Positions 3,460 to 34,331 of a DNA stretch of 64,000 nt are shown piece after piece. The stretch lies in the NCBI GenBank assembly GCA_022844165.1, contig JALHMH010000020.1, forward strand, positions 18,136 to 82,135. Reading direction: 5' to 3'. The notes beneath the pieces are model-generated. The model saw only the letters and a program-made list of their open reading frames with translations. It made no database searches and had not been told where the DNA came from. This stretch comes from Lysobacterales bacterium. Lineage in GTDB: Bacteria > Pseudomonadota > Gammaproteobacteria > Xanthomonadales > SZUA-5. The position numbers were made by a program, and so were the translations under genes. How positions within the stretch are numbered: position 1 is the stretch's first letter; each line of letters begins with the position of its first letter.

Positions 3460-4664
3460 GGCGTCCGCTCCAACATCGCCACCGCGCGCGCCTTGTGGCT
3501 CGGCGCCAAGTGCGAGTAGCGCTCGGTCATGGTCAGGTCGCTGTGTCCCAGCAGTTCCTTGACGACGTACAACTCCGCGCCGGCCATTACTAACCGGCTG
3601 GCGAAATGGTGGCGCAGATCGTGGAAGCGCAAGTCCTCGATTTGTGCGGCGGCGATTAGACCGGCCCAGGATTTGTTGATGTTCGTCAGCGCTCGCCGGT
3701 CCTCGCCAGGGAAAACAAGACCCTCACCGCTGCCCTGCCCTCGCCAGCGCTTCAGCACGCCGAAGGCTTCTTCGTTCAGTGGTATTCGCCGCGTGCGCTG
3801 GCCCTTCGACGTGGCGGCGGTTACGGTGATAACGCGGTGGGTCAGATCGACGTTCGACCAGTTCAGCCCGAACAACTCGCCGCGCCGCATGCCGGTATTG
3901 ATTGCGACCAGCACCAGCGGCGCAAGGTGGTCCGTGTAGCCATCGTCAGCGAACGATGGGCGCCCCGGTCGGCGGCGTTCGGCGTTCCAACGATTGCCGC
4001 TGTCGCGCTCTTTGCGTCGTCGAATCTCGCGCGCATCGAGCGCGGCGCGCAACGCGCCCTCTTCCTCCGGCGTCATGAATCGCGCCCGCTGCTCGTCGTC
4101 GCCCTTGGCGCGCTCGACGTTCTTCATGGGGTGCGATTCGAGGTATCCCCATTCAATCGCTTTTGACAGCACGGCGCGAATGCGCACCAAGTCGCGGTTG
4201 ACGGTCGCCGGTTTGATGCCATCGCGCAGGCGCGCTGCCTTGAAGCGGTCCATCTTGTAGGGCGAGATGGCGGCCAGTTTCTCCGGGTACAGGTCGGAGA
4301 ATTGCGCCTTCAGCGCGGCCAGCGTGGCGGCGCCCGCGCGGCGCTCGGCGAGCACCCACGGTGCATAGCGTTCGGTGATGAACTGGCCGAGCGACGACGG
4401 CCGTGAATGCCCGCGTGCAGCCGGCGGCAGCTTGCCGGAATCGTACTCAGACAGCCAGGTCCGCGCCGTCCTGCGCGCCTGCTCCAGGGTGATCACGGAC
4501 GCGTTGCCGATGGTGCGCCGTTTGCCGCGCGCCAGCTCGACGACGTAGGACTTCACGCCCGATGGTTGGACGCGCAGCATCAACCCTTTCTGCGCGCCGT
4601 CGCGTATCTCGTAGGGCCGCGCATCGGGTGCCGATTGTTGGACGGTTTTGAGCGAGAGAGCCAC
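3456..4664 (-). CDS. int: Tyrosine recombinase/integrase with N-terminal arm-binding domain
   Basis: Catalytic TGMRRGE, HDLRH, LLGH and YSH motifs; N-terminal GLMLRVQPSGVKSY arm-DNA-binding motif; GTG start at 4664 after GGGAGG. Confidence 0.92.
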   Translation of the reverse strand: MALSLKTVQQSAPDARPYEIRDGAQKGLMLRVQPSGVKSYVVELARGKRRTIGNASVITLEQARRTARTWLSEYDSGKLPPAARGHSRPSSLGQFITERYAPWVLAERRAGAATLAALKAQFSDLYPEKLAAISPYKMDRFKAARLRDGIKPATVNRDLVRIRAVLSKAIEWGYLESHPMKNVERAKGDDEQRARFMTPEEEGALRAALDAREIRRRKERDSGNRWNAERRRPGRPSFADDGYTDHLAPLVLVAINTGMRRGELFGLNWSNVDLTHRVITVTAATSKGQRTRRIPLNEEAFGVLKRWRGQGSGEGLVFPGEDRRALTNINKSWAGLIAAAQIEDLRFHDLRHHFASRLVMAGAELYVVKELLGHSDLTMTERYSHLAPSHKARAVAMLERTP

Positions 4665-29925: not shown

Positions 29926-29955
29926 GGGCGTAAAAAGGCATTGGGAAGCCACGGA

Positions 29956-29982
29956 TTTGAGGGCAGAATGGCGAAGTTCAAG
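29956..29982 (-). promoter_or_regulatory. Putative sigma-32 promoter of htpG
   Basis: CTTGAA-N13-CCCTCAAA. Confidence 0.55.
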
Positions 29983-29997
29983 CGGCGGATCGCTTTC

Positions 29998-31107
29998 ATG
30001 TTGAATGCCCTTCGAGTCGCCTCGCCTCTGCATCTTGCGGCGCTGATCACCTGGCTGGCAGTGCTTGCGCAATCGCTGCGCTTTAACGGGCTCCGCAGTG
30101 GCGATCCACTGCAGCTGTTCGGTTTGCTGTCGTTGTGTGCGGTCGCGGGACTCTACTTCGGTACCATGCACACCCAATCGGCACGCGGACGTGGGCTGAT
30201 GGTGATCGGACAAGGGCTACTGGTGCTGGTTGGCACCTGGTGCTTTCGCAACGGCGGTCCAGCAATTTTGCTGATCGTGGTTGCAAGCCAGATGGTCGCG
30301 ATGTTTCAGCGTCGCAATGCGCTGGCGCTCATGATTGCTTTGAATGTCGGAATGGCACTCATCTACTCTGTCGCCATGCCGTGGGCCAACGTGCTGCTGT
30401 TTCTGACGCCACTGATCGGCTTTCAACTGTTCGCCGCGTTGACCATGCACTACGCCGTCAGCGCTGAAGCCGCACGAGCGGAAGTCCAGCGGACGCACGC
30501 TCATTTGTTGGCAACCCAACAATTACTCGCTGAAAGTACACGCGGCGATGAGCGATTGAAGCTCTCCCGCGAACTTCACGATGTTGCCGGTCACAAATTG
30601 ACGGCACTCAAACTCAATCTGCGCCTGCTGCGCCGCCAACCAGCGCTCGCGGAAAATGCCGAATTGGGCATCGCGGCGCAGCTGGCCGATGAGTTGCTCG
30701 ACGACATTCGTGCCGTTGTCAGCGAGTTGCGGCGCCACGATGGCATCGACCTTCCCGCCGCAATAGAACTCCTCACACGGCAGATACCAGGACCTGGTTT
30801 TGAGGTTGACATCGACCCGGAATTGCGGATCGCTGATGTCGCCCGTGCCGAGGCGTTGTTGCGGTGCGTGCAGGAGGGAATCACCAATGCGCTGAAGCAC
30901 GGCCAGCCGACCGCCATTCGTATTGGACTCAAGCATCGCGATGGACGGATTGCGCTTACTGTGGAGGACAATGGTCAATCCCGCGGCGAAGTCCGTTTCG
31001 GCAACGGGTTGAACGGCATGCGCGAACGCCTCGCCGACATTGGCGGTGTATTGGAAGTGATCGGCACTGCGTCAGGCGTGCGTCTGCTGGCCGAGGTGCC
31101 AGCATGA
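29998..31107 (+). CDS. Membrane sensor histidine kinase (HisKA_3, DesK/NarX-like)
   Basis: Several TM helices; SRELHDVAGH, QEGITNALKH, DNG and GNGLNGMRER motifs. Confidence 0.92.
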   Translation: MLNALRVASPLHLAALITWLAVLAQSLRFNGLRSGDPLQLFGLLSLCAVAGLYFGTMHTQSARGRGLMVIGQGLLVLVGTWCFRNGGPAILLIVVASQMVAMFQRRNALALMIALNVGMALIYSVAMPWANVLLFLTPLIGFQLFAALTMHYAVSAEAARAEVQRTHAHLLATQQLLAESTRGDERLKLSRELHDVAGHKLTALKLNLRLLRRQPALAENAELGIAAQLADELLDDIRAVVSELRRHDGIDLPAAIELLTRQIPGPGFEVDIDPELRIADVARAEALLRCVQEGITNALKHGQPTAIRIGLKHRDGRIALTVEDNGQSRGEVRFGNGLNGMRERLADIGGVLEVIGTASGVRLLAEVPA

Positions 31108-31736
31108 TCCACATCGCCTTGCTGGACGACCAGGCCCTGGTGCTCAAAGGCCTGTCAGCGCTGTTGCGCAGTGTGCCCGGCATCGATGTCGCGCTCGAAT
31201 CAACGAACGCCGAGCAGCTGCTGCACGCGTTGGAGCGTCGCGCCGTCGATGTCATTGTCAGCGATATTCGTATGCCTGGCATAAACGGATTCGAACTGAT
31301 CACGAGCCTGCGCGAACGTGGCGATACGACACCAGTCATCTTGCTGACAACCTTCGATGACAAAGAGCTGATGTTGGCAGCTGTCGATGCCGGAGCGCAG
31401 GGGTTCTTGCTCAAGGACGCGGCACCGGAGGATTTGGCCGAAGCCATCGCCAAGGTAGCTGCAGGGGATACGCTGCTACAACCCGTGAGCCTGGGCGCAG
31501 TGCGCGCACAACGCCCTTCCGTTCGCAACGAGAGCCTGCGGAACGTCTCCCTCTCAGATCGCGAAGTCAGCATCCTGCGGCTGGTCGCCGGCGGTTATTC
31601 GAACAAAGAGATCGGCCGCAGTTTGCACCTCTCGGAAGGCACGGTGAAAAACTACATCACCGAGATCCTGGCGAAGCTGGACTGCCGCGACCGCACGCAC
31701 GCGGTCTTAAAGGCAATCACGCACCGCTTATTGTGA
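31104..31736 (+). CDS. NarL/LuxR-family response regulator
   Basis: LLDDQ, SDIRMP, LTTFD and LSDRE...GYSNKEIG...GTVKNY; ATGA-coupled to the kinase. Confidence 0.93.
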   Translation: MIHIALLDDQALVLKGLSALLRSVPGIDVALESTNAEQLLHALERRAVDVIVSDIRMPGINGFELITSLRERGDTTPVILLTTFDDKELMLAAVDAGAQGFLLKDAAPEDLAEAIAKVAAGDTLLQPVSLGAVRAQRPSVRNESLRNVSLSDREVSILRLVAGGYSNKEIGRSLHLSEGTVKNYITEILAKLDCRDRTHAVLKAITHRLL

Positions 31737-31842
31737 ATCCGAGAACTAAGTCACGGACGCATTGTGGCGTAGCGCATTCACTCGCGAAGCCCAAACTTGC
31801 TCAACGAAACGCCGCACTTTCTCTGGTCCTTTCATGAACTCG

Positions 31843-31870
31843 TTGCCTCCAGACGACAGGCAGGCATACT
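31843..31870 (+). promoter_or_regulatory. Putative sigma-70 promoter of the retron transcript
   Basis: TTGCCT-N16-CATACT; predicted start at about 31877, at the 5' edge of the a2 repeat. Confidence 0.5.
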
Positions 31871-31877
31871 GGGCAAA

Positions 31878-32038
31878 CGCAGCAGTCGTCCCGAGTGTGG
31901 GGTAGTTCATCACTATCCACTGCGGGGATGCCCCGCGGCCTGGCTGTATGTTTCGGCAGTTGCATGGCAGTGAAGCTCGTTTGCCTTTCGGCAAACCCAC
32001 TTTCACCGCAATCGAAGACGTCGGGACGGCTGTCTGCG
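31878..32038 (+). ncRNA. Retron msr-msd non-coding RNA
   Basis: Terminal inverted repeats CGCAGCAGTCGTCCCGA (31878-31894) and TCGGGACGGCTGTCTGCG (32021-32038) form 17 bp with one G-U and one bulge. Unpaired G31895 follows the left repeat. Stem-loops at 31897-31920, 31922-31936 and 31942-31961, and a long hairpin at about 31967-32009. Ends 19 nt before the RT ATG. Confidence 0.82.
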
Positions 32039-32057
32039 CTTTCGCTTCTGGAACGCC

Positions 32058-33107
32058 ATGATGCGCTTTGACCAACTGCCCGGATTCGAGTCGACGATTC
32101 ACCTGGCGCAATGGCTCGGCCTGGCAATGGGCGAGATCGACTGGTTTGCAGATCGCTACAACAATCTGGCACGAAACCACGTGGAACAGAGCCACCACTA
32201 CCGATGGCATTGGCTACCCAAACGCCGCGGCGGCGTGCGTATGATTGAGGCACCCAAAGCCCGTCTGCGGCGTGTTCAACGGCGCATCCTGGATCGGATT
32301 TTGCACCTCGTGCCATTGTCGGAAGCAGCCTGTGGATTCGTCCGCGGGCGATCATGCCTGGACCATGCCCGGCGCCATGTTGGAGCAATCTGGCTGGTGA
32401 CGACGGATCTTAGCGACTGGTTCGGCCGCATCGACGGTGCGCGCGTGTTCGCGCAATTTCGTTGGCTGGGCTATCCGCCAGCCGTGGCCGTTGCACTCAC
32501 TGGCCTTTGTACGACGCGCGTGCCAGCTGCGCTCATTGCGCAAGCAGCGCCCGGCGATCGACTGTGGCTGCGCTCACCCCACTTGCCGCAAGGTGCGCCC
32601 ACCTCGCCCAGTCTGGCCAACCTGGTGACCTCTCGGCTGGATCGGCGCCTGAGCGCCTACGCTGCGGCGGAAAACCTGCGCTATTCGCGATACGCTGATG
32701 ATCTTGCGCTTTCGCCGCAGCATGGCGCAAATGCGCCACCTCCAGACCGCGTCATTGATGCTGTCACGCGCATTGCTCGCAGCGAACGCTTCGTCATAAA
32801 CACAGCCAAAACCCACATACGCAGGCAATGTGACTCGATGCGCATCTGCGGCAGCATCGTTAACGCCAGACTTAACTCAACCCGGGTCGAATACGATCGC
32901 CTGCGCGCCGCAGTACATCGCCACGTTCATGGGAACCCAGAGCCGGATCTCAACAAGTTGCTGGGTCAGCTGACATGGCTTGCCCAGCGAAACCCCAGAC
33001 GCGCCGAGCGGCTGCGAGAGAAGTTGAAGCGTGAGGCGGGTCCGGGTTCCGACGAGTTGGAGCCACAGATAGACCGGCTCACATGCAGCAGCGCAAACAA
33101 CGGCTGA
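32058..33107 (+). CDS. Retron-type reverse transcriptase
   Basis: PKRRGGVRMIEAP, GFVRGRS, HARRH (region X, NAxxH-like), DLSDWF, LPQGAPTSPSLAN, YSRYADDL and ICGSIVN (region Y, VTG-like). No maturase, endonuclease or effector fusion. Confidence 0.92.
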   Translation: MMRFDQLPGFESTIHLAQWLGLAMGEIDWFADRYNNLARNHVEQSHHYRWHWLPKRRGGVRMIEAPKARLRRVQRRILDRILHLVPLSEAACGFVRGRSCLDHARRHVGAIWLVTTDLSDWFGRIDGARVFAQFRWLGYPPAVAVALTGLCTTRVPAALIAQAAPGDRLWLRSPHLPQGAPTSPSLANLVTSRLDRRLSAYAAAENLRYSRYADDLALSPQHGANAPPPDRVIDAVTRIARSERFVINTAKTHIRRQCDSMRICGSIVNARLNSTRVEYDRLRAAVHRHVHGNPEPDLNKLLGQLTWLAQRNPRRAERLREKLKREAGPGSDELEPQIDRLTCSSANNG

Positions 33108-33134
33108 GTATCAGAACAGGTTTTGCCTGCTTGT

Positions 33135-33211
33135 TGGTAGCGGGGGCAGGATTTGAACCTGCGACCTTCGGGTTATGAGCCCGACGAGCTGCCTGACTGC
33201 TCCACCCCGCA
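33135..33211 (-). tRNA. tRNA-Met(CAT), initiator type
   Basis: 77-nt cloverleaf; anticodon arm TCGGG-CTCATAA-CCCGA with three G-C pairs; GGTTCAAATCC T arm; encoded CCA; unpaired 1:72. Confidence 0.95.
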
Positions 33212-33440
33212 CCGGTAAGCCCGCAACTTTAGCGAACACTCGCGGAGAACGCAAGTCAAAATTTTGGCGAATCGCCAGCAGTTCCACTCATCTCCAGAGC
33301 ACTGTCGAACGCAGCCAACAATGCGCGGCGGCCTGCGGCGAAGCCTCGTCGGCCGGTTGAAAAGTCGGCACCTGTGGCAATCATCGTGGCGACATTTGGT
33401 CTTGTTATGCTCCAGGCTACTTCGTTAGTGAGTCTCGCCC

Positions 33441-34331
33441 ATGAGCGCTCGGTTACGCACCGTTGTTTTTCCCGTTGCAGGACTCGGAACCCGGTTTCTA
33501 CCGGCGACCAAAGTGGTACCGAAGGAACTACTGCCGATCATGGATCGGCCACTGATCCAATGGGCGGCGGACGAGGCGATCGCCGCAGGCGCGGACACGC
33601 TGGTGTTTGTCGTGAATCGCAACAAACGAGCGATCAACGACCACTTTGACATGGCGTTCGAACTTGAATCGAGGTTGGCGAGCAGCGGCAAGACCGAGCA
33701 TTTGAAAATGGTGCGGGAAACTCTGCCGGCGCATGTGCGTCCGGTGTTTGTTTTGCAGCCAGAAGCGCGTGGACTCGGACACGCCGTTTTGTGCGCCAGG
33801 CCAGCCGTCGCCAATGGTCCCTTCGGCGTAATTTTGCCCGACGACTTTATCTTGAATCGCAATGGCCCCGGCGCGCTGGCGCAGATGGCTGCTGTTCAAG
33901 CCGAGCACGGCGGCAGCGTGATCGCCGTCGAGCCCGTCGAATGGAAGGACACATCGCGCTACGGCATCGTCTCGGGCTCACAAGTCAATCGTCAGCTGAT
34001 GAGGATTGATACGATCGTCGAAAAACCCAGGCCTGATGTAGCGCCAAGTAACCTGGGCGTTGTCGGACGATATGTGCTCGATCACCACATTTTCGATTTG
34101 TTGGAGCGCACCAATCCCGGCGCAGGCGGAGAAATCCAGCTCACAGACGCCATCGCTGCACTGCTGAAAGAACAGCCGGCGTACGCGTATCGCTTCGATG
34201 GCGTGCGCTACGACTGTGGAAACAAACTAGGTTACGTGCAGGCGACCCTTCGCTGTGCGCTAGACGACGAGGAAATCGGCGACGAATTGCGCCGTACACT
34301 GGAGAACTGGCTGGCGCCGAGTGTGGCTTGA
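33441..34331 (+). CDS. galU: UTP-glucose-1-phosphate uridylyltransferase
   Basis: PVAGLGTRFLPATK, VEKP and GEIQLTDAI motifs. Confidence 0.96.
   Translation: MSARLRTVVFPVAGLGTRFLPATKVVPKELLPIMDRPLIQWAADEAIAAGADTLVFVVNRNKRAINDHFDMAFELESRLASSGKTEHLKMVRETLPAHVRPVFVLQPEARGLGHAVLCARPAVANGPFGVILPDDFILNRNGPGALAQMAAVQAEHGGSVIAVEPVEWKDTSRYGIVSGSQVNRQLMRIDTIVEKPRPDVAPSNLGVVGRYVLDHHIFDLLERTNPGAGGEIQLTDAIAALLKEQPAYAYRFDGVRYDCGNKLGYVQATLRCALDDEEIGDELRRTLENWLAPSVA

What the first reader, a model, noticed from the sequence alone, without database searches (positions are those of the whole stretch)
31843..33107. Complete effector-less (orphan) retron: promoter, unannotated msr-msd ncRNA and RT
Seen: a 349-aa RT with YADD and LPQGAPTSP. 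Directly upstream is a ~160-nt element closed by 17-bp inverted repeats (31878-31894 and 32021-32038), with an unpaired G at 31895, three short stem-loops and a long hairpin. A -35/-10 pair would start transcription at the first repeat. Established: characterised retrons are usually tripartite anti-phage systems (ncRNA, RT, adjacent or fused toxic effector). Here the neighbours are a response regulator (ends 31736) and a convergent tRNA, with no room for a same-strand effector gene and no fused domain. Inference: an intact two-part retron whose msDNA either acts without a cis effector, controls an effector encoded elsewhere, or has a non-defence role. This is the best candidate for an undescribed system in the window.
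Basis: partly seen in the sequence, partly recalled or inferred. Interest (0 to 1): 0.88.

Follow-up and report, generated by a model that had tools for sequence, protein, structure and literature searches.

The report
Stand-alone retron of a known orphan clade
This is a real, intact retron (a reverse transcriptase plus its template RNA) with no partner toxin gene beside it, but such stand-alone retrons have already been described, so it adds a clean example to a known unsolved group and is not a new kind of system.

Summary
Window 32058-33107 encodes a 349-aa retron-type RT. Directly upstream, 31873-32045 folds as a canonical msr-msd RNA with an a1/a2 stem, unpaired G31895, three msr hairpins and one msd hairpin.

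The RNA is conserved upstream of related RTs, with strong covariation (94% of cells paired, 38 of 47 pairs with double changes).

No effector is fused or adjacent. The neighbours are a histidine kinase/LuxR response-regulator pair and a convergent tRNA-Met.

The RT falls in a 58-row clade (SH-aLRT 99) whose members share no recurrent neighbour. That clade is sister to the type XIII retrons. PADLOC scores the RT best as RT_other/RT_outgroup.

Mestre et al. 2020 already described stand-alone cassettes in clade 11 and called such retrons "orphan"; a 2026 survey found no top accessory for clade 11. So "undescribed system" is not supported.

Local peculiarities:
- The RT is a short form lacking the roughly 100-aa N-terminal extension of its relatives.
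- The kinase-regulator-retron block is conserved in the sister species.
- In that species the RT overlaps a membrane-protein gene that occurs without retrons elsewhere.
- The same genome carries a complete type XIII retron.

The RT is under purifying selection (dN/dS 0.14). Function is unknown.

The parts
29932..31107 (+). Histidine kinase (HisKA_3 + HATPase_c). The start is approximate. First gene of the conserved kinase-regulator-retron block.
   Evidence: Pfam. 71% identical to the kinase of the sister species G001. Orthologues occur in 12 of 25 genomes of the family at E<=1e-60, counting G000 itself. In the four loci fetched from other genera no RT was found by tblastn.
31107..31736 (+). 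LuxR-type response regulator (Response_reg + GerE).
   Evidence: Pfam. 83% identical to G001's regulator, dN/dS 0.10. No terminator-like site was predicted on the + strand between 31736 and 31878.
31843..31870 (+). Unverified.
   Evidence: 8 of 12 consensus matches by my reading, below the scan threshold. Only GCATACTG is shared with G001. Not alignable in G479 or G438.
31873..31894 (+). a1 arm of the closing stem.
   Evidence: 14 of the 16 pairs of this helix show double (compensatory) changes across 11 sequences.
31895..31895 (+). Predicted branching (priming) G, unpaired at the end of a1.
   Evidence: Unpaired in the minimum-energy fold. An 'AG' at this position is kept in most of the 11 aligned ncRNAs. 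The 2'-5' priming itself is inferred from retron biochemistry and is not shown here.
31900..31918 (+). msr hairpin 1. Its sequence varies but the pairing is kept.
   Evidence: 7 of 7 pairs have double changes (helix 3).
31920..31938 (+). msr hairpin 2, CUGCGGGG-AUG-CCCCGCGG. Nearly invariant in sequence across the clade and a candidate RT recognition element.
   Evidence: (helix 4: 5 of 8 pairs never vary). The motif CGGGG-N3-5-CCCCG lies upstream of the RT core in 42 of 50 clade loci, against 2 of 22 type-XIII-context loci. The recognition role is inferred.
31942..31961 (+). msr hairpin 3, the weakest helix.
   Evidence: 82% of cells are paired and 5 of 5 pairs show double changes (helix 5).
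31967..32009 (+). msd hairpin, the predicted template for the msDNA stem-loop.
   Evidence: The base of the stem is conserved with 8 of 8 pairs co-varying (helices 6 and 7). The inner stem differs in sequence between species but still pairs.
32018..32045 (+). a2 arm of the closing stem.
32058..33107 (+). Retron reverse transcriptase, 349 aa. A short form with no N-terminal extension and no fused domain.
   Evidence: dN/dS is 0.14 against G001. The open frame upstream of the ATG is only 28 codons (377 aa stop-to-stop).
33117..33129 (+). Weak terminator-like hairpin after the RT stop.
   Evidence: 5 pairs, 3 of them G-C. The scan found 4 such sites in the region against 2.5 +/- 1.8 in shuffles, so this is weak.
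33135..33211 (-). tRNA-Met(CAT), convergent. It bounds the locus.
   Evidence: ARAGORN. Rfam tRNA, 64.5 bits. No second copy of its 3' 25 nt occurs in the window.

Best explanation
This is a functional stand-alone (orphan) retron of the lineage that Mestre et al. 2020 call RT clade 11 and PADLOC calls 'RT_other/RT_outgroup'.

Proposed mechanism:
1. The roughly 170-nt ncRNA (31873-32045) is transcribed, either from its own weak promoter or by read-through from the kinase-regulator operon.
2. Its ends pair (a1/a2), presenting the unpaired G31895.
3. The RT (32058-33107) recognises the near-invariant msr hairpin at 31920-31938.
4. The RT primes on the 2'-OH of G31895 and copies the msd region leftwards from about 32019. 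The product would be a branched msDNA of roughly 55-75 nt with a hairpin.

Shown here: the RT's family, the conserved and co-varying RNA structure, purifying selection on the RT, and the absence of any conserved cis partner across the clade.

Inferred: priming, msDNA production, and everything downstream of them.

My split for the biological output:
- About 40%: phage sensing or defence through a partner that is not adjacent.
- About 30%: a non-defence cellular role, possibly under the neighbouring two-component system.
- About 20%: the RT-msDNA complex acts on invaders by itself.
- About 10%: the element persists without a role.
For: RT family:
- PADLOC RT_other 3e-111 (371 bits) and RT_outgroup 'retron' 2.9e-106, against RT_XIII 1.9e-79.
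- 14 of 15 PDB sequence hits are retron RTs, the best being Ec86 at 1.3e-30.
- In that alignment Ec86's NATPH and VTG align with HARRH and ICG. The A and H of region X and the G of region Y are kept.

Phylogeny: in a tree of 89 RTs the window RT sits in a 6-row short-form group (SH-aLRT 92). That group lies inside a 58-row clade (99) that is sister to a 25-row clade holding all 20 loci with type XIII context.

ncRNA:
- Fold z-score -4.48.
- A model built from the window and sister-species copies gave 33 matches at E<=1 over 93 sources. 25 of them lie upstream of the related RT on its own strand.
- The same model found the RNA in 6 of 8 further genome loci.
- On 11 sequences, 94.0% of cells are paired, 38 of 47 pairs show double changes, 0 of 500 shuffles reach this, and slid controls give 39-48%.

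No cis partner:
- All-against-all clustering of ORFs within +/-5 kb in 92 loci found no neighbour family in more than 3 loci of this clade. The SWIM protein marks 19 loci of the sister clade.
- Pfam tallies of the nearest neighbours: no family in more than 2 of 39 downstream ORFs or more than 2 of 34 upstream ORFs. The neighbours are varied, many with ordinary metabolic or housekeeping domains.
- The other short-form genome, G479, has a convergent AMP-binding gene downstream of the RT.

Selection: dN/dS is 0.14 for the RT, against 0.16 for the kinase and 0.10 for the regulator. The ncRNA is 82% identical between the two species while synonymous sites are saturated.

Literature: stand-alone cassettes in clade 11 and a branch of clade 2, and 'orphan retrons' (PMC7736814, passages). 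Clade11-A and clade11-B are listed without a top accessory module (PMC13712802, passages).
Against: - No experiment shows msDNA, and no RNA data could be examined.
- Assignment to clade 11 rests on proxies: PADLOC model names, a position sister to type XIII, and an actinobacterial/acidobacterial/Pseudomonadota membership like the published one. Mestre's reference sequences and the OutgroupA/B covariance models are in supplements I could not open.
- The RT lacks the roughly 95-150-aa N-terminal extension seen in nearly all relatives, so it is atypical for the clade.
- Regions X and Y deviate from the NAxxH and VTG consensus.
- The covariation alignment was fitted to the model's structure, which inflates the paired percentage.
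- In the sister species the RT stop overlaps (ATGA) the start of a 343-aa membrane-protein gene. That could be a lost partner.
- No Rfam family matched the RNA at E<=10.
Confidence: 0.8

Rival explanations
1. A degenerate tripartite retron. The ancestor carried a downstream effector, namely the 343-aa N-terminally membrane-anchored protein that is translationally coupled to the RT in the sister species. The window lost it in a rearrangement at the RT's 3' end.
For: - In G001 the RT stop and the next ORF's start overlap as ATGA. That ORF shows coding-like codon-position GC and is an annotated protein (P0123).
- An RT at least 90% identical to G001's (P0127) and a membrane protein 87% identical to P0123 (P0124) each have a longest contig of 150,135 bases. 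They may therefore come from one further genome.
- Homology between the window and G001 ends at the RT's C-terminus, and the window RT has a unique 25-aa tail.
Against: - Homologues of the membrane protein occur in 8 of 24 genomes of the family.
- In the three loci of another genus that I fetched, tblastn found no RT, regulator, kinase or LptD beside it. The three loci share neighbouring genes on both sides.
- No PADLOC or Pfam family matches it.
- It has no homologue in the window's genome.
- The short-form retron of G479 has a convergent metabolic gene downstream.
- The 58-row clade has no recurrent neighbour.
- The RT and the ncRNA remain under constraint.
Confidence: 0.1
2. The retron is an output of the adjacent two-component system. 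It is co-transcribed with, or regulated by, the kinase and the LuxR-type regulator, and serves a regulatory (non-defence) role.
For: - The kinase-regulator-ncRNA-RT block (2.9 kb) is the only part of the locus shared with the sister species.
- The window's 10-39 kb region is otherwise split into 1-4.5-kb blocks that lie on at least 9 different G001 contigs.
- The gap between the regulator and the ncRNA is 141 nt here and about 55 nt in G001, with no predicted terminator.
- The surrounding genes are housekeeping genes.
Against: - Only two species of one genus show the linkage.
- Blocks of similar size survive elsewhere in the region, so the adjacency may be chance.
- In the four fetched loci from other genera the kinase-regulator pair has no RT beside it.
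- Other members of the RT clade have unrelated neighbours.
Confidence: 0.15
3. The orphan retron uses, in trans, the accessory proteins of the complete type XIII retron encoded elsewhere in the same genome.
For: G000 contig C6 carries a WGR/HEAT-ARM protein, a SWIM protein (PADLOC SWIM_XIII, 5.3e-154) and an RT (RT_XIII, 1.5e-150). The two RT clades are sisters.
Against: - The sister species G001 shows only the orphan RT at E<=1e-20.
- G479 shows only one RT match at E<=1e-40.
- The conserved msr hairpin of the orphan clade is essentially absent from type-XIII-context loci: 2 of 22, neither a clean match.
Confidence: 0.05
4. It is not a retron. The RT belongs to another class (group II intron, DRT/Abi, DGR) and the upstream hairpins are incidental.
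For: No Rfam family matched the upstream RNA at E<=10. Regions X and Y deviate from the consensus.
Against: - All top PADLOC hits are retron RTs.
- The NCBIfam group II intron RT scores only 46.9 bits against a cutoff of 300, and Drt2/Drt3a score 21-31 bits.
- 14 of 15 PDB hits are retron RTs.
- The ncRNA shows strong covariation at a fixed position relative to the RT.
Confidence: 0.02

Closest known systems
Clade 11 'stand-alone (msr-msd)-RT cassettes', among the retrons Mestre et al. 2020 (NAR 48:12632) found without an associated protein. Subdivided as clade11-A (ncRNA model OutgroupA) and clade11-B (OutgroupB) in the 2026 SPIRE survey. PADLOC models RT_other and RT_outgroup.
   Same: - The best PADLOC models are RT_other and RT_outgroup.
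- The ncRNA lies directly upstream.
- No recurrent accessory gene.
- The clade is sister to type XIII.
- Relatives occur in Actinomycetota, Acidobacteriota, Planctomycetota and Pseudomonadota, like the published distribution.
   Different: - The RT is a short form: 349 aa, aligning from about position 144 of the 481-position RT_other profile. It lacks the N-terminal extension.
- So far this form is seen only in a small group: the window, G001, G479 and a few metagenome proteins.
- It scores lower (371 bits) than actinobacterial members (573-582 bits).
- Membership was not checked against the published reference set or covariance models, because supplements are closed.
Type XIII retrons (clade 10: Mx162, Mx65, Sa163, Ne144)
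   Same: Sister RT clade. RT_XIII is the third-best PADLOC model. The overall msr-msd plan is the same.
   Different: - No SWIM or HEAT/ARM genes at this locus.
- A different conserved msr hairpin.
- No N-terminal extension.
- The same genome has a genuine type XIII system elsewhere.
Retron-Eco1 (Ec86) and other tripartite toxin-antitoxin retrons
   Same: The RT core aligns over residues 48-319 (1.3e-30), with YADD and LPQGAP(T/S)SP conserved. The a1/a2 stem and the priming-G layout are also the same.
   Different: - No effector gene or fused domain.
- A 19-residue insertion (about 154-172) relative to Ec86.
- Region X is HARRH and region Y is ICG.
- Housekeeping surroundings, with nothing prophage-like next to the locus. 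The nearest integrase match lies about 28 kb upstream.
Retron-Eco5 (Ec107) branch of clade 2
   Same: The other branch that Mestre et al. describe as mostly lacking an associated protein.
   Different: A distant RT clade. The PADLOC RT_Ec107-like model scores only 159 bits.

Membership tests
Retron (general) | [quoted passage not shown] | tested here: met
   The top PADLOC hits are retron RT models, and 14 of 15 PDB hits are retron RTs. YADD is present. Region X reads HARRH and region Y reads ICG in the Ec86 alignment. The residues that Mestre's text names as most conserved, or that I infer to be so (H of region X, G of region Y), are kept. The N and the VT are substituted. The motif names come from PMC7736814.
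Retron (general) | A contiguous ncRNA with terminal inverted repeats (a1/a2), 1-3 msr hairpins and a long msd hairpin. | tested here: met
   z = -4.48; 94% paired, 38 of 47 pairs co-vary, 0 of 500 shuffles.
Retron (general) | A conserved unpaired priming G at the 3' end of a1. | tested here: met
   G31895 is unpaired. 'AG' is kept at this position in most of the 11 aligned ncRNAs. This is sequence evidence only.
Retron (general) | Production of branched multicopy ssDNA (msDNA). | not testable with these tools
Clade 11 stand-alone retrons (Mestre 2020) | The RT groups with clade 11 reference RTs. | tested here: inconclusive
   Only proxies are available: the best PADLOC models are RT_other and RT_outgroup, and the RT sits inside a 58-row clade (SH-aLRT 99) sister to the type-XIII-context clade. 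The published reference sequences are in supplements I could not open.
Clade 11 stand-alone retrons (Mestre 2020) | The ncRNA matches the OutgroupA or OutgroupB covariance model. | not testable with these tools
   Those models are not available here. My own model links the window's ncRNA to 25 upstream matches among relatives' loci and 6 of 8 further loci. The three Mycobacteriales loci lack the conserved hairpin. This would fit two ncRNA families, but that is inference.
Clade 11 stand-alone retrons (Mestre 2020) | No recurrent associated protein or fused domain. | tested here: met
   for relatives. for the window.
Clade 11 stand-alone retrons (Mestre 2020) | An N-terminal extension of the RT. 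This is typical of relatives but is not stated as defining. | tested here: not met
   The window RT aligns from profile position 144 of 481 (RT_other) and 84 of 407 (RT_outgroup). Relatives' ORFs extend 285-450 nt further upstream. The conserved hairpin lies at -135 here, against about -375 to -551 in relatives.
Type XIII retron | An adjacent SWIM Zn-finger/winged-helix protein, usually with a HEAT/ARM protein. | tested here: not met
   No such gene lies within about 8 kb upstream or 6 kb downstream of the RT. RT_XIII scores 266 bits against 371 for RT_other.
Tripartite toxin-antitoxin retron defence system | A toxic effector encoded next to, or fused with, the RT. | tested here: not met
   The RT has a single RVT_1 domain. 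27 nt separate its stop from the convergent tRNA. There is no small ORF in the ncRNA region that is conserved between the two species.

The most novel reading that the evidence does not exclude
The retron is an effector-free module wired to a two-component system. The LuxR-type regulator would control production of an msDNA-RT particle that acts as a regulatory or sensing nucleic acid. That would be a non-defence, domesticated use of a retron, made by a minimal RT that has shed the N-terminal extension of its clade.
Probability: 0.1. Interest if true: 0.85.

Novelty: new member of a known kind. Interest (0 to 1): 0.38.

Why it matters
What stand-alone (orphan) retrons do is an open question. 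Mestre et al. 2020 asked whether they work with unknown effectors in trans or have acquired another function (passage read).

In my paper searches I found no experimental answer for this clade.

This locus is a compact test case for four reasons:
- It is 1.27 kb, with an ncRNA supported by covariation.
- The RT is under purifying selection.
- A sister species shares the same kinase-regulator-retron block but has a different downstream gene.
- A type XIII retron in the same genome can serve as an internal comparison.

It does not change what is known about the kinds of retron that exist.

Tried and rejected
- Rfam at E<=10 over 31000-34000 matched only the tRNA and two chance hits.
- The sigma-70 scan found no promoter at the proposed site. 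Aligning the upstream regions of four genomes gave no shared -35/-10.
- A genomic island at tRNA-Met was rejected. There is no second copy of the tRNA's 3' 25 nt, no GC shift, and the neighbours are housekeeping genes. The only integrase match on this contig lies at window 3498-3917, about 28 kb away.
- The membrane protein of G001 as a retron effector: no Pfam or PADLOC hit, no usable protein-atlas hit, and it occurs in other genomes without an RT beside it. I kept this only as a minor rival.
- A conserved small ORF inside the ncRNA region was rejected. The frames differ between the two species.
- A second, broader covariance model could not be built, because calibration was forecast to exceed the time limit. 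I used a plain motif count instead.
- Sequencing runs: no RNA holder was listed. The five holders are DNA metagenome runs from two studies.
- PLoS Biol 2025 (PMC12548924): my term search found none of the terms.
- A search for retron papers on Xanthomonadales found nothing relevant in the 10 papers listed of 166.
- The supplements of Mestre 2020 and of the 2026 survey (reference RT lists, covariance models, neighbour tables) were not seen. They could settle clade membership.
Full report
**What is there.** The ORF at 32058-33107 (+) encodes 349 aa with LPQGAPTSP and RYADDL. It has a single Pfam RVT_1 domain (1.2e-21). The frame is open for only 28 codons upstream of the ATG (377 aa stop-to-stop), so there is no hidden N-terminal extension. 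The C-terminus carries no extra domain.

The region 31870-32045 folds at -80.5 kcal/mol, against -63.1 +/- 3.9 for 200 dinucleotide shuffles (z = -4.48, none as good). The fold has these parts:
- A long closing stem: 31873-31894 with 32021-32045, plus 31896-31898 with 32018-32020.
- An unpaired G at 31895.
- Three hairpins: 31900-31918, 31920-31938 and 31942-31961.
- A longer hairpin at 31967-32009.

The repeat finder independently reports arms at 31883-31894 and 32021-32032. The left neighbour is a histidine kinase plus a LuxR-type response regulator ending at 31736. The right neighbour is tRNA-Met(CAT) on the minus strand at 33135-33211, 27 nt after the RT stop. The one exception is the promoter, which the scan does not find and which matches the consensus at only 8 of 12 positions.

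**The RT is a retron RT.**
- PADLOC scores RT_other at 3e-111, RT_outgroup ('retron') at 2.9e-106 and RT_XIII at 1.9e-79, followed by other retron types.
- NCBIfam retron models score well below their cut-offs. The group II intron and DRT models score far lower still.
- Of 15 PDB sequence matches, 14 are retron RTs, the best being Ec86 at 1.3e-30; the last is a group II intron RT.
- In the Ec86 alignment, region X reads HARRH (Ec86: NATPH) and region Y reads ICG (Ec86: VTG). There is a 19-residue insertion at about 154-172.

**The upstream RNA is conserved and co-varies.**
- The sister species (G001, same genus) has the same kinase-regulator-ncRNA-RT order.
- The two ncRNAs are 82% identical, and 7 pairs show changes on both sides.
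- A covariance model built from these two gave 33 matches at E<=1 over 93 sources. 25 lie on the RT's strand just upstream of the RT, or 22 if three pairs of identical loci are counted once. The other 8 lie elsewhere or on the other strand.
- In 8 further genome loci the model found the RNA upstream of the RT in 6.
- On the 11 best sequences, 94.0% of cells are paired, 38 of 47 pairs have double changes, 0 of 500 column shuffles reach this, and sliding the partners gives 39-48%. The alignment was fitted to the model, which favours the structure, but the margin is large.
- Hairpin 31920-31938 (CUGCGGGG-AUG-CCCCGCGG) is almost invariant in sequence, and an AG follows a1 in most sequences.
- A simple motif for this hairpin occurs upstream of the RT core in 42 of 50 clade loci with enough flank. 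36 of these lie at -375 to -551; the window and G001 have it at -135 and -163. It occurs in 2 of 22 loci with type XIII context. The background rate is 0.18 per 830 nt.
- No small ORF in this region is conserved between the two species.

**Where the RT sits (89 RTs, IQ-TREE quick search, SH-aLRT support).**
- The window RT groups with five short RTs (P0003-P0007; support 92).
- That group is nested with two metagenome RTs (support 95).
- All of these lie inside a 58-row clade (support 99) that includes RTs from Gordonia, Williamsia, a Pirellulales MAG and a Candidatus Angelobacter MAG.
- This clade is sister to a 25-row clade holding all 20 loci with type XIII context.
- Rows left out of the tree: duplicates (L019, L036, L047, L077), loci subsumed by larger ones (L001, L002, L008; L013 and the window are represented by P0003 and P0001), and ORFs under 300 aa.

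**Is an effector missing?**
- I clustered all ORFs of at least 80 aa within +/-5 kb of the RT in 92 loci.
- The only widespread neighbour is a protein of about 550 aa, found just upstream of the RT in 19 loci. It is the type XIII SWIM protein (Pfam SWIM in L076; PADLOC SWIM_XIII 5.3e-154 for the genome's own copy).
- Inside the 58-row clade no neighbour family occurs in more than 3 loci, and those cases involve near-identical loci.
- I then chose the nearest neighbour on each side with a script that favours long ORFs with coding-like GC3. Pfam scans of 39 downstream and 34 upstream ORFs found no family in more than 2 members. The hits include aspartyl-tRNA synthetase, Lon, DnaE, dehydrogenases and similar enzymes.
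- Most downstream neighbours are convergent.
- Among short-form genomes, G479 has a convergent AMP-binding gene downstream (GC3 0.95) and a divergent 1,540-aa gene of unknown family upstream.
- The stand-alone state is therefore a property of the clade, not a local loss.

**The one exception.**
- In G001 the RT stop overlaps (ATGA) the start of a 343-aa ORF with an N-terminal hydrophobic segment. The ORF has coding-like composition and is an annotated protein.
- It has no Pfam or PADLOC match, no usable atlas hit, and no homologue in the window's genome.
- Homologues exist in 8 of 24 genomes of the family. In the three loci of another genus that I fetched, tblastn found no RT, regulator, kinase or LptD beside it, and the three loci share neighbouring genes on both sides.
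- I read it as a resident gene that came to lie next to the retron in G001, not as a dedicated effector. Loss of a partner in the window remains a 10% rival.

**Context and history.**
- The kinase and regulator have orthologues in 12 of 25 family genomes, counting G000 itself. In the four loci fetched from other genera no RT lies beside them, and nothing downstream of the regulator is shared among those loci.
- Between the window's genome and G001, the region at window 10-39 kb is broken into blocks of 1-4.5 kb that lie on at least 9 different G001 contigs. The kinase-regulator-retron block (2.9 kb) is one such block.
- dN/dS between the two species is 0.14 for the RT, 0.16 for the kinase and 0.10 for the regulator, with synonymous sites saturated.
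- The RT type is rare. In the relatives search 6 of 39 genomes matched at E<=1e-20. The only one over 41% identical was G001, and the rest were 35-36% identical, with type XIII or type III context.
- At E<=1e-50 it matched 3 of 400 genomes sampled in the class. At E<=1e-40 it matched 9 of 399 in the order, a count that includes type XIII RTs.
- A source name for a relative's protein, together with matching contig lengths, suggests that the order is Xanthomonadales-like Gammaproteobacteria. This is an inference.

**Comparison with what is known.**
- Mestre et al. 2020 (PMC7736814; passages read) defined 11 RT clades. Type XIII is clade 10.
- They report stand-alone (msr-msd)-RT cassettes in a branch of clade 2 and in clade 11.
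- Discussing the clade 2 (Retron-Eco5/Ec107) branch, they note that most genomes with 'orphan retrons' lack homologues of known retron-associated proteins. They leave open whether those retrons use trans effectors or have another function.
- The 2026 SPIRE survey (PMC13712802; passages read) lists clade11-A and clade11-B with no top accessory module and rates them low in novelty.
- The retron census (bioRxiv 10.1101/2024.01.25.577267; passages read) sampled every clade and reports intermediate RT-DNA production outside clades 2, 9, 10, 3 and 4.
- The window's element fits this known category. It differs in being a short RT: it aligns from position 144 of the 481-position RT_other profile and scores lower than actinobacterial members (371 against 573-582 bits).

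**Verdict.** This is a genuine, intact, selectively maintained stand-alone retron, and a new member of a known but functionally unsolved group. It is interesting as an experimental handle, not as a new kind of system.

Noticed in passing
G000 contig C6, locus L014: 11118-13598 (-), 9418-11121 (-), 7729-9126 (-): The same genome carries a complete type XIII retron outside the window. PADLOC hits: a WGR/HEAT-ARM protein (WGR_XIII, 2e-69), a SWIM protein (SWIM_XIII, 5.3e-154) and an RT (RT_XIII, 1.5e-150). Polyphosphate kinase and Ppx/GppA genes follow it.
   Followed up: partly
L013 (G001 contig C1) 6226-7257 (-): A 343-aa protein of unknown family with an N-terminal hydrophobic segment. Its start overlaps the RT stop (ATGA) in the sister species. 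Its homologues were found only in this bacterial family (8 of 24 genomes) among the 399 genomes of the order that were searched.
   Followed up: yes
window 10000-39200: Compared with the same-genus genome G001, this region is a mosaic of 1-4.5-kb blocks lying on at least 9 different G001 contigs. From about 39.2 kb onward the window is collinear with G001 contig C3 for at least 14 kb. In G001 the tRNA-Met gene is followed directly by that 39.2-kb block. It could be real plasticity or an assembly effect in either genome.
   Followed up: partly
window 3498-3917 (-): A tyrosine recombinase/phage-integrase domain match (PF00589, 1.9e-32) in a 434-aa open frame, about 28 kb upstream of the retron.
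   Followed up: no
relatives' loci, e.g. L026 5690-6000, L018 5683-6000: Nearly all RTs of this clade and of type XIII carry an N-terminal extension of about 95-150 aa with no Pfam family. The short-form group (window, G001, G479, P0004-P0007) has lost it. Its role is unknown.
   Followed up: partly
L131 (G438 contig C2) 7242-11285 (+): An N-extended stand-alone retron in another genus of the same family lies divergently next to an ECF sigma factor and a Ser/Thr kinase-TPR protein. Together with the kinase-regulator pair here, that makes two signalling neighbours in one family. This may be coincidence.
   Followed up: no
L004, L005, L007 (Williamsia, Gordonia): The three Mycobacteriales loci of the clade lack the conserved CGGGG-N-CCCCG hairpin. 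Two of them share a DnaE gene upstream. This would fit the separate ncRNA family published as clade11-B, but I did not test it.
   Followed up: no
L011, L012, L089, L091: The more distant RT hits used as the tree outgroup have a PRTase-CE + wHTH protein upstream, which is a type III-like retron context.
   Followed up: partly
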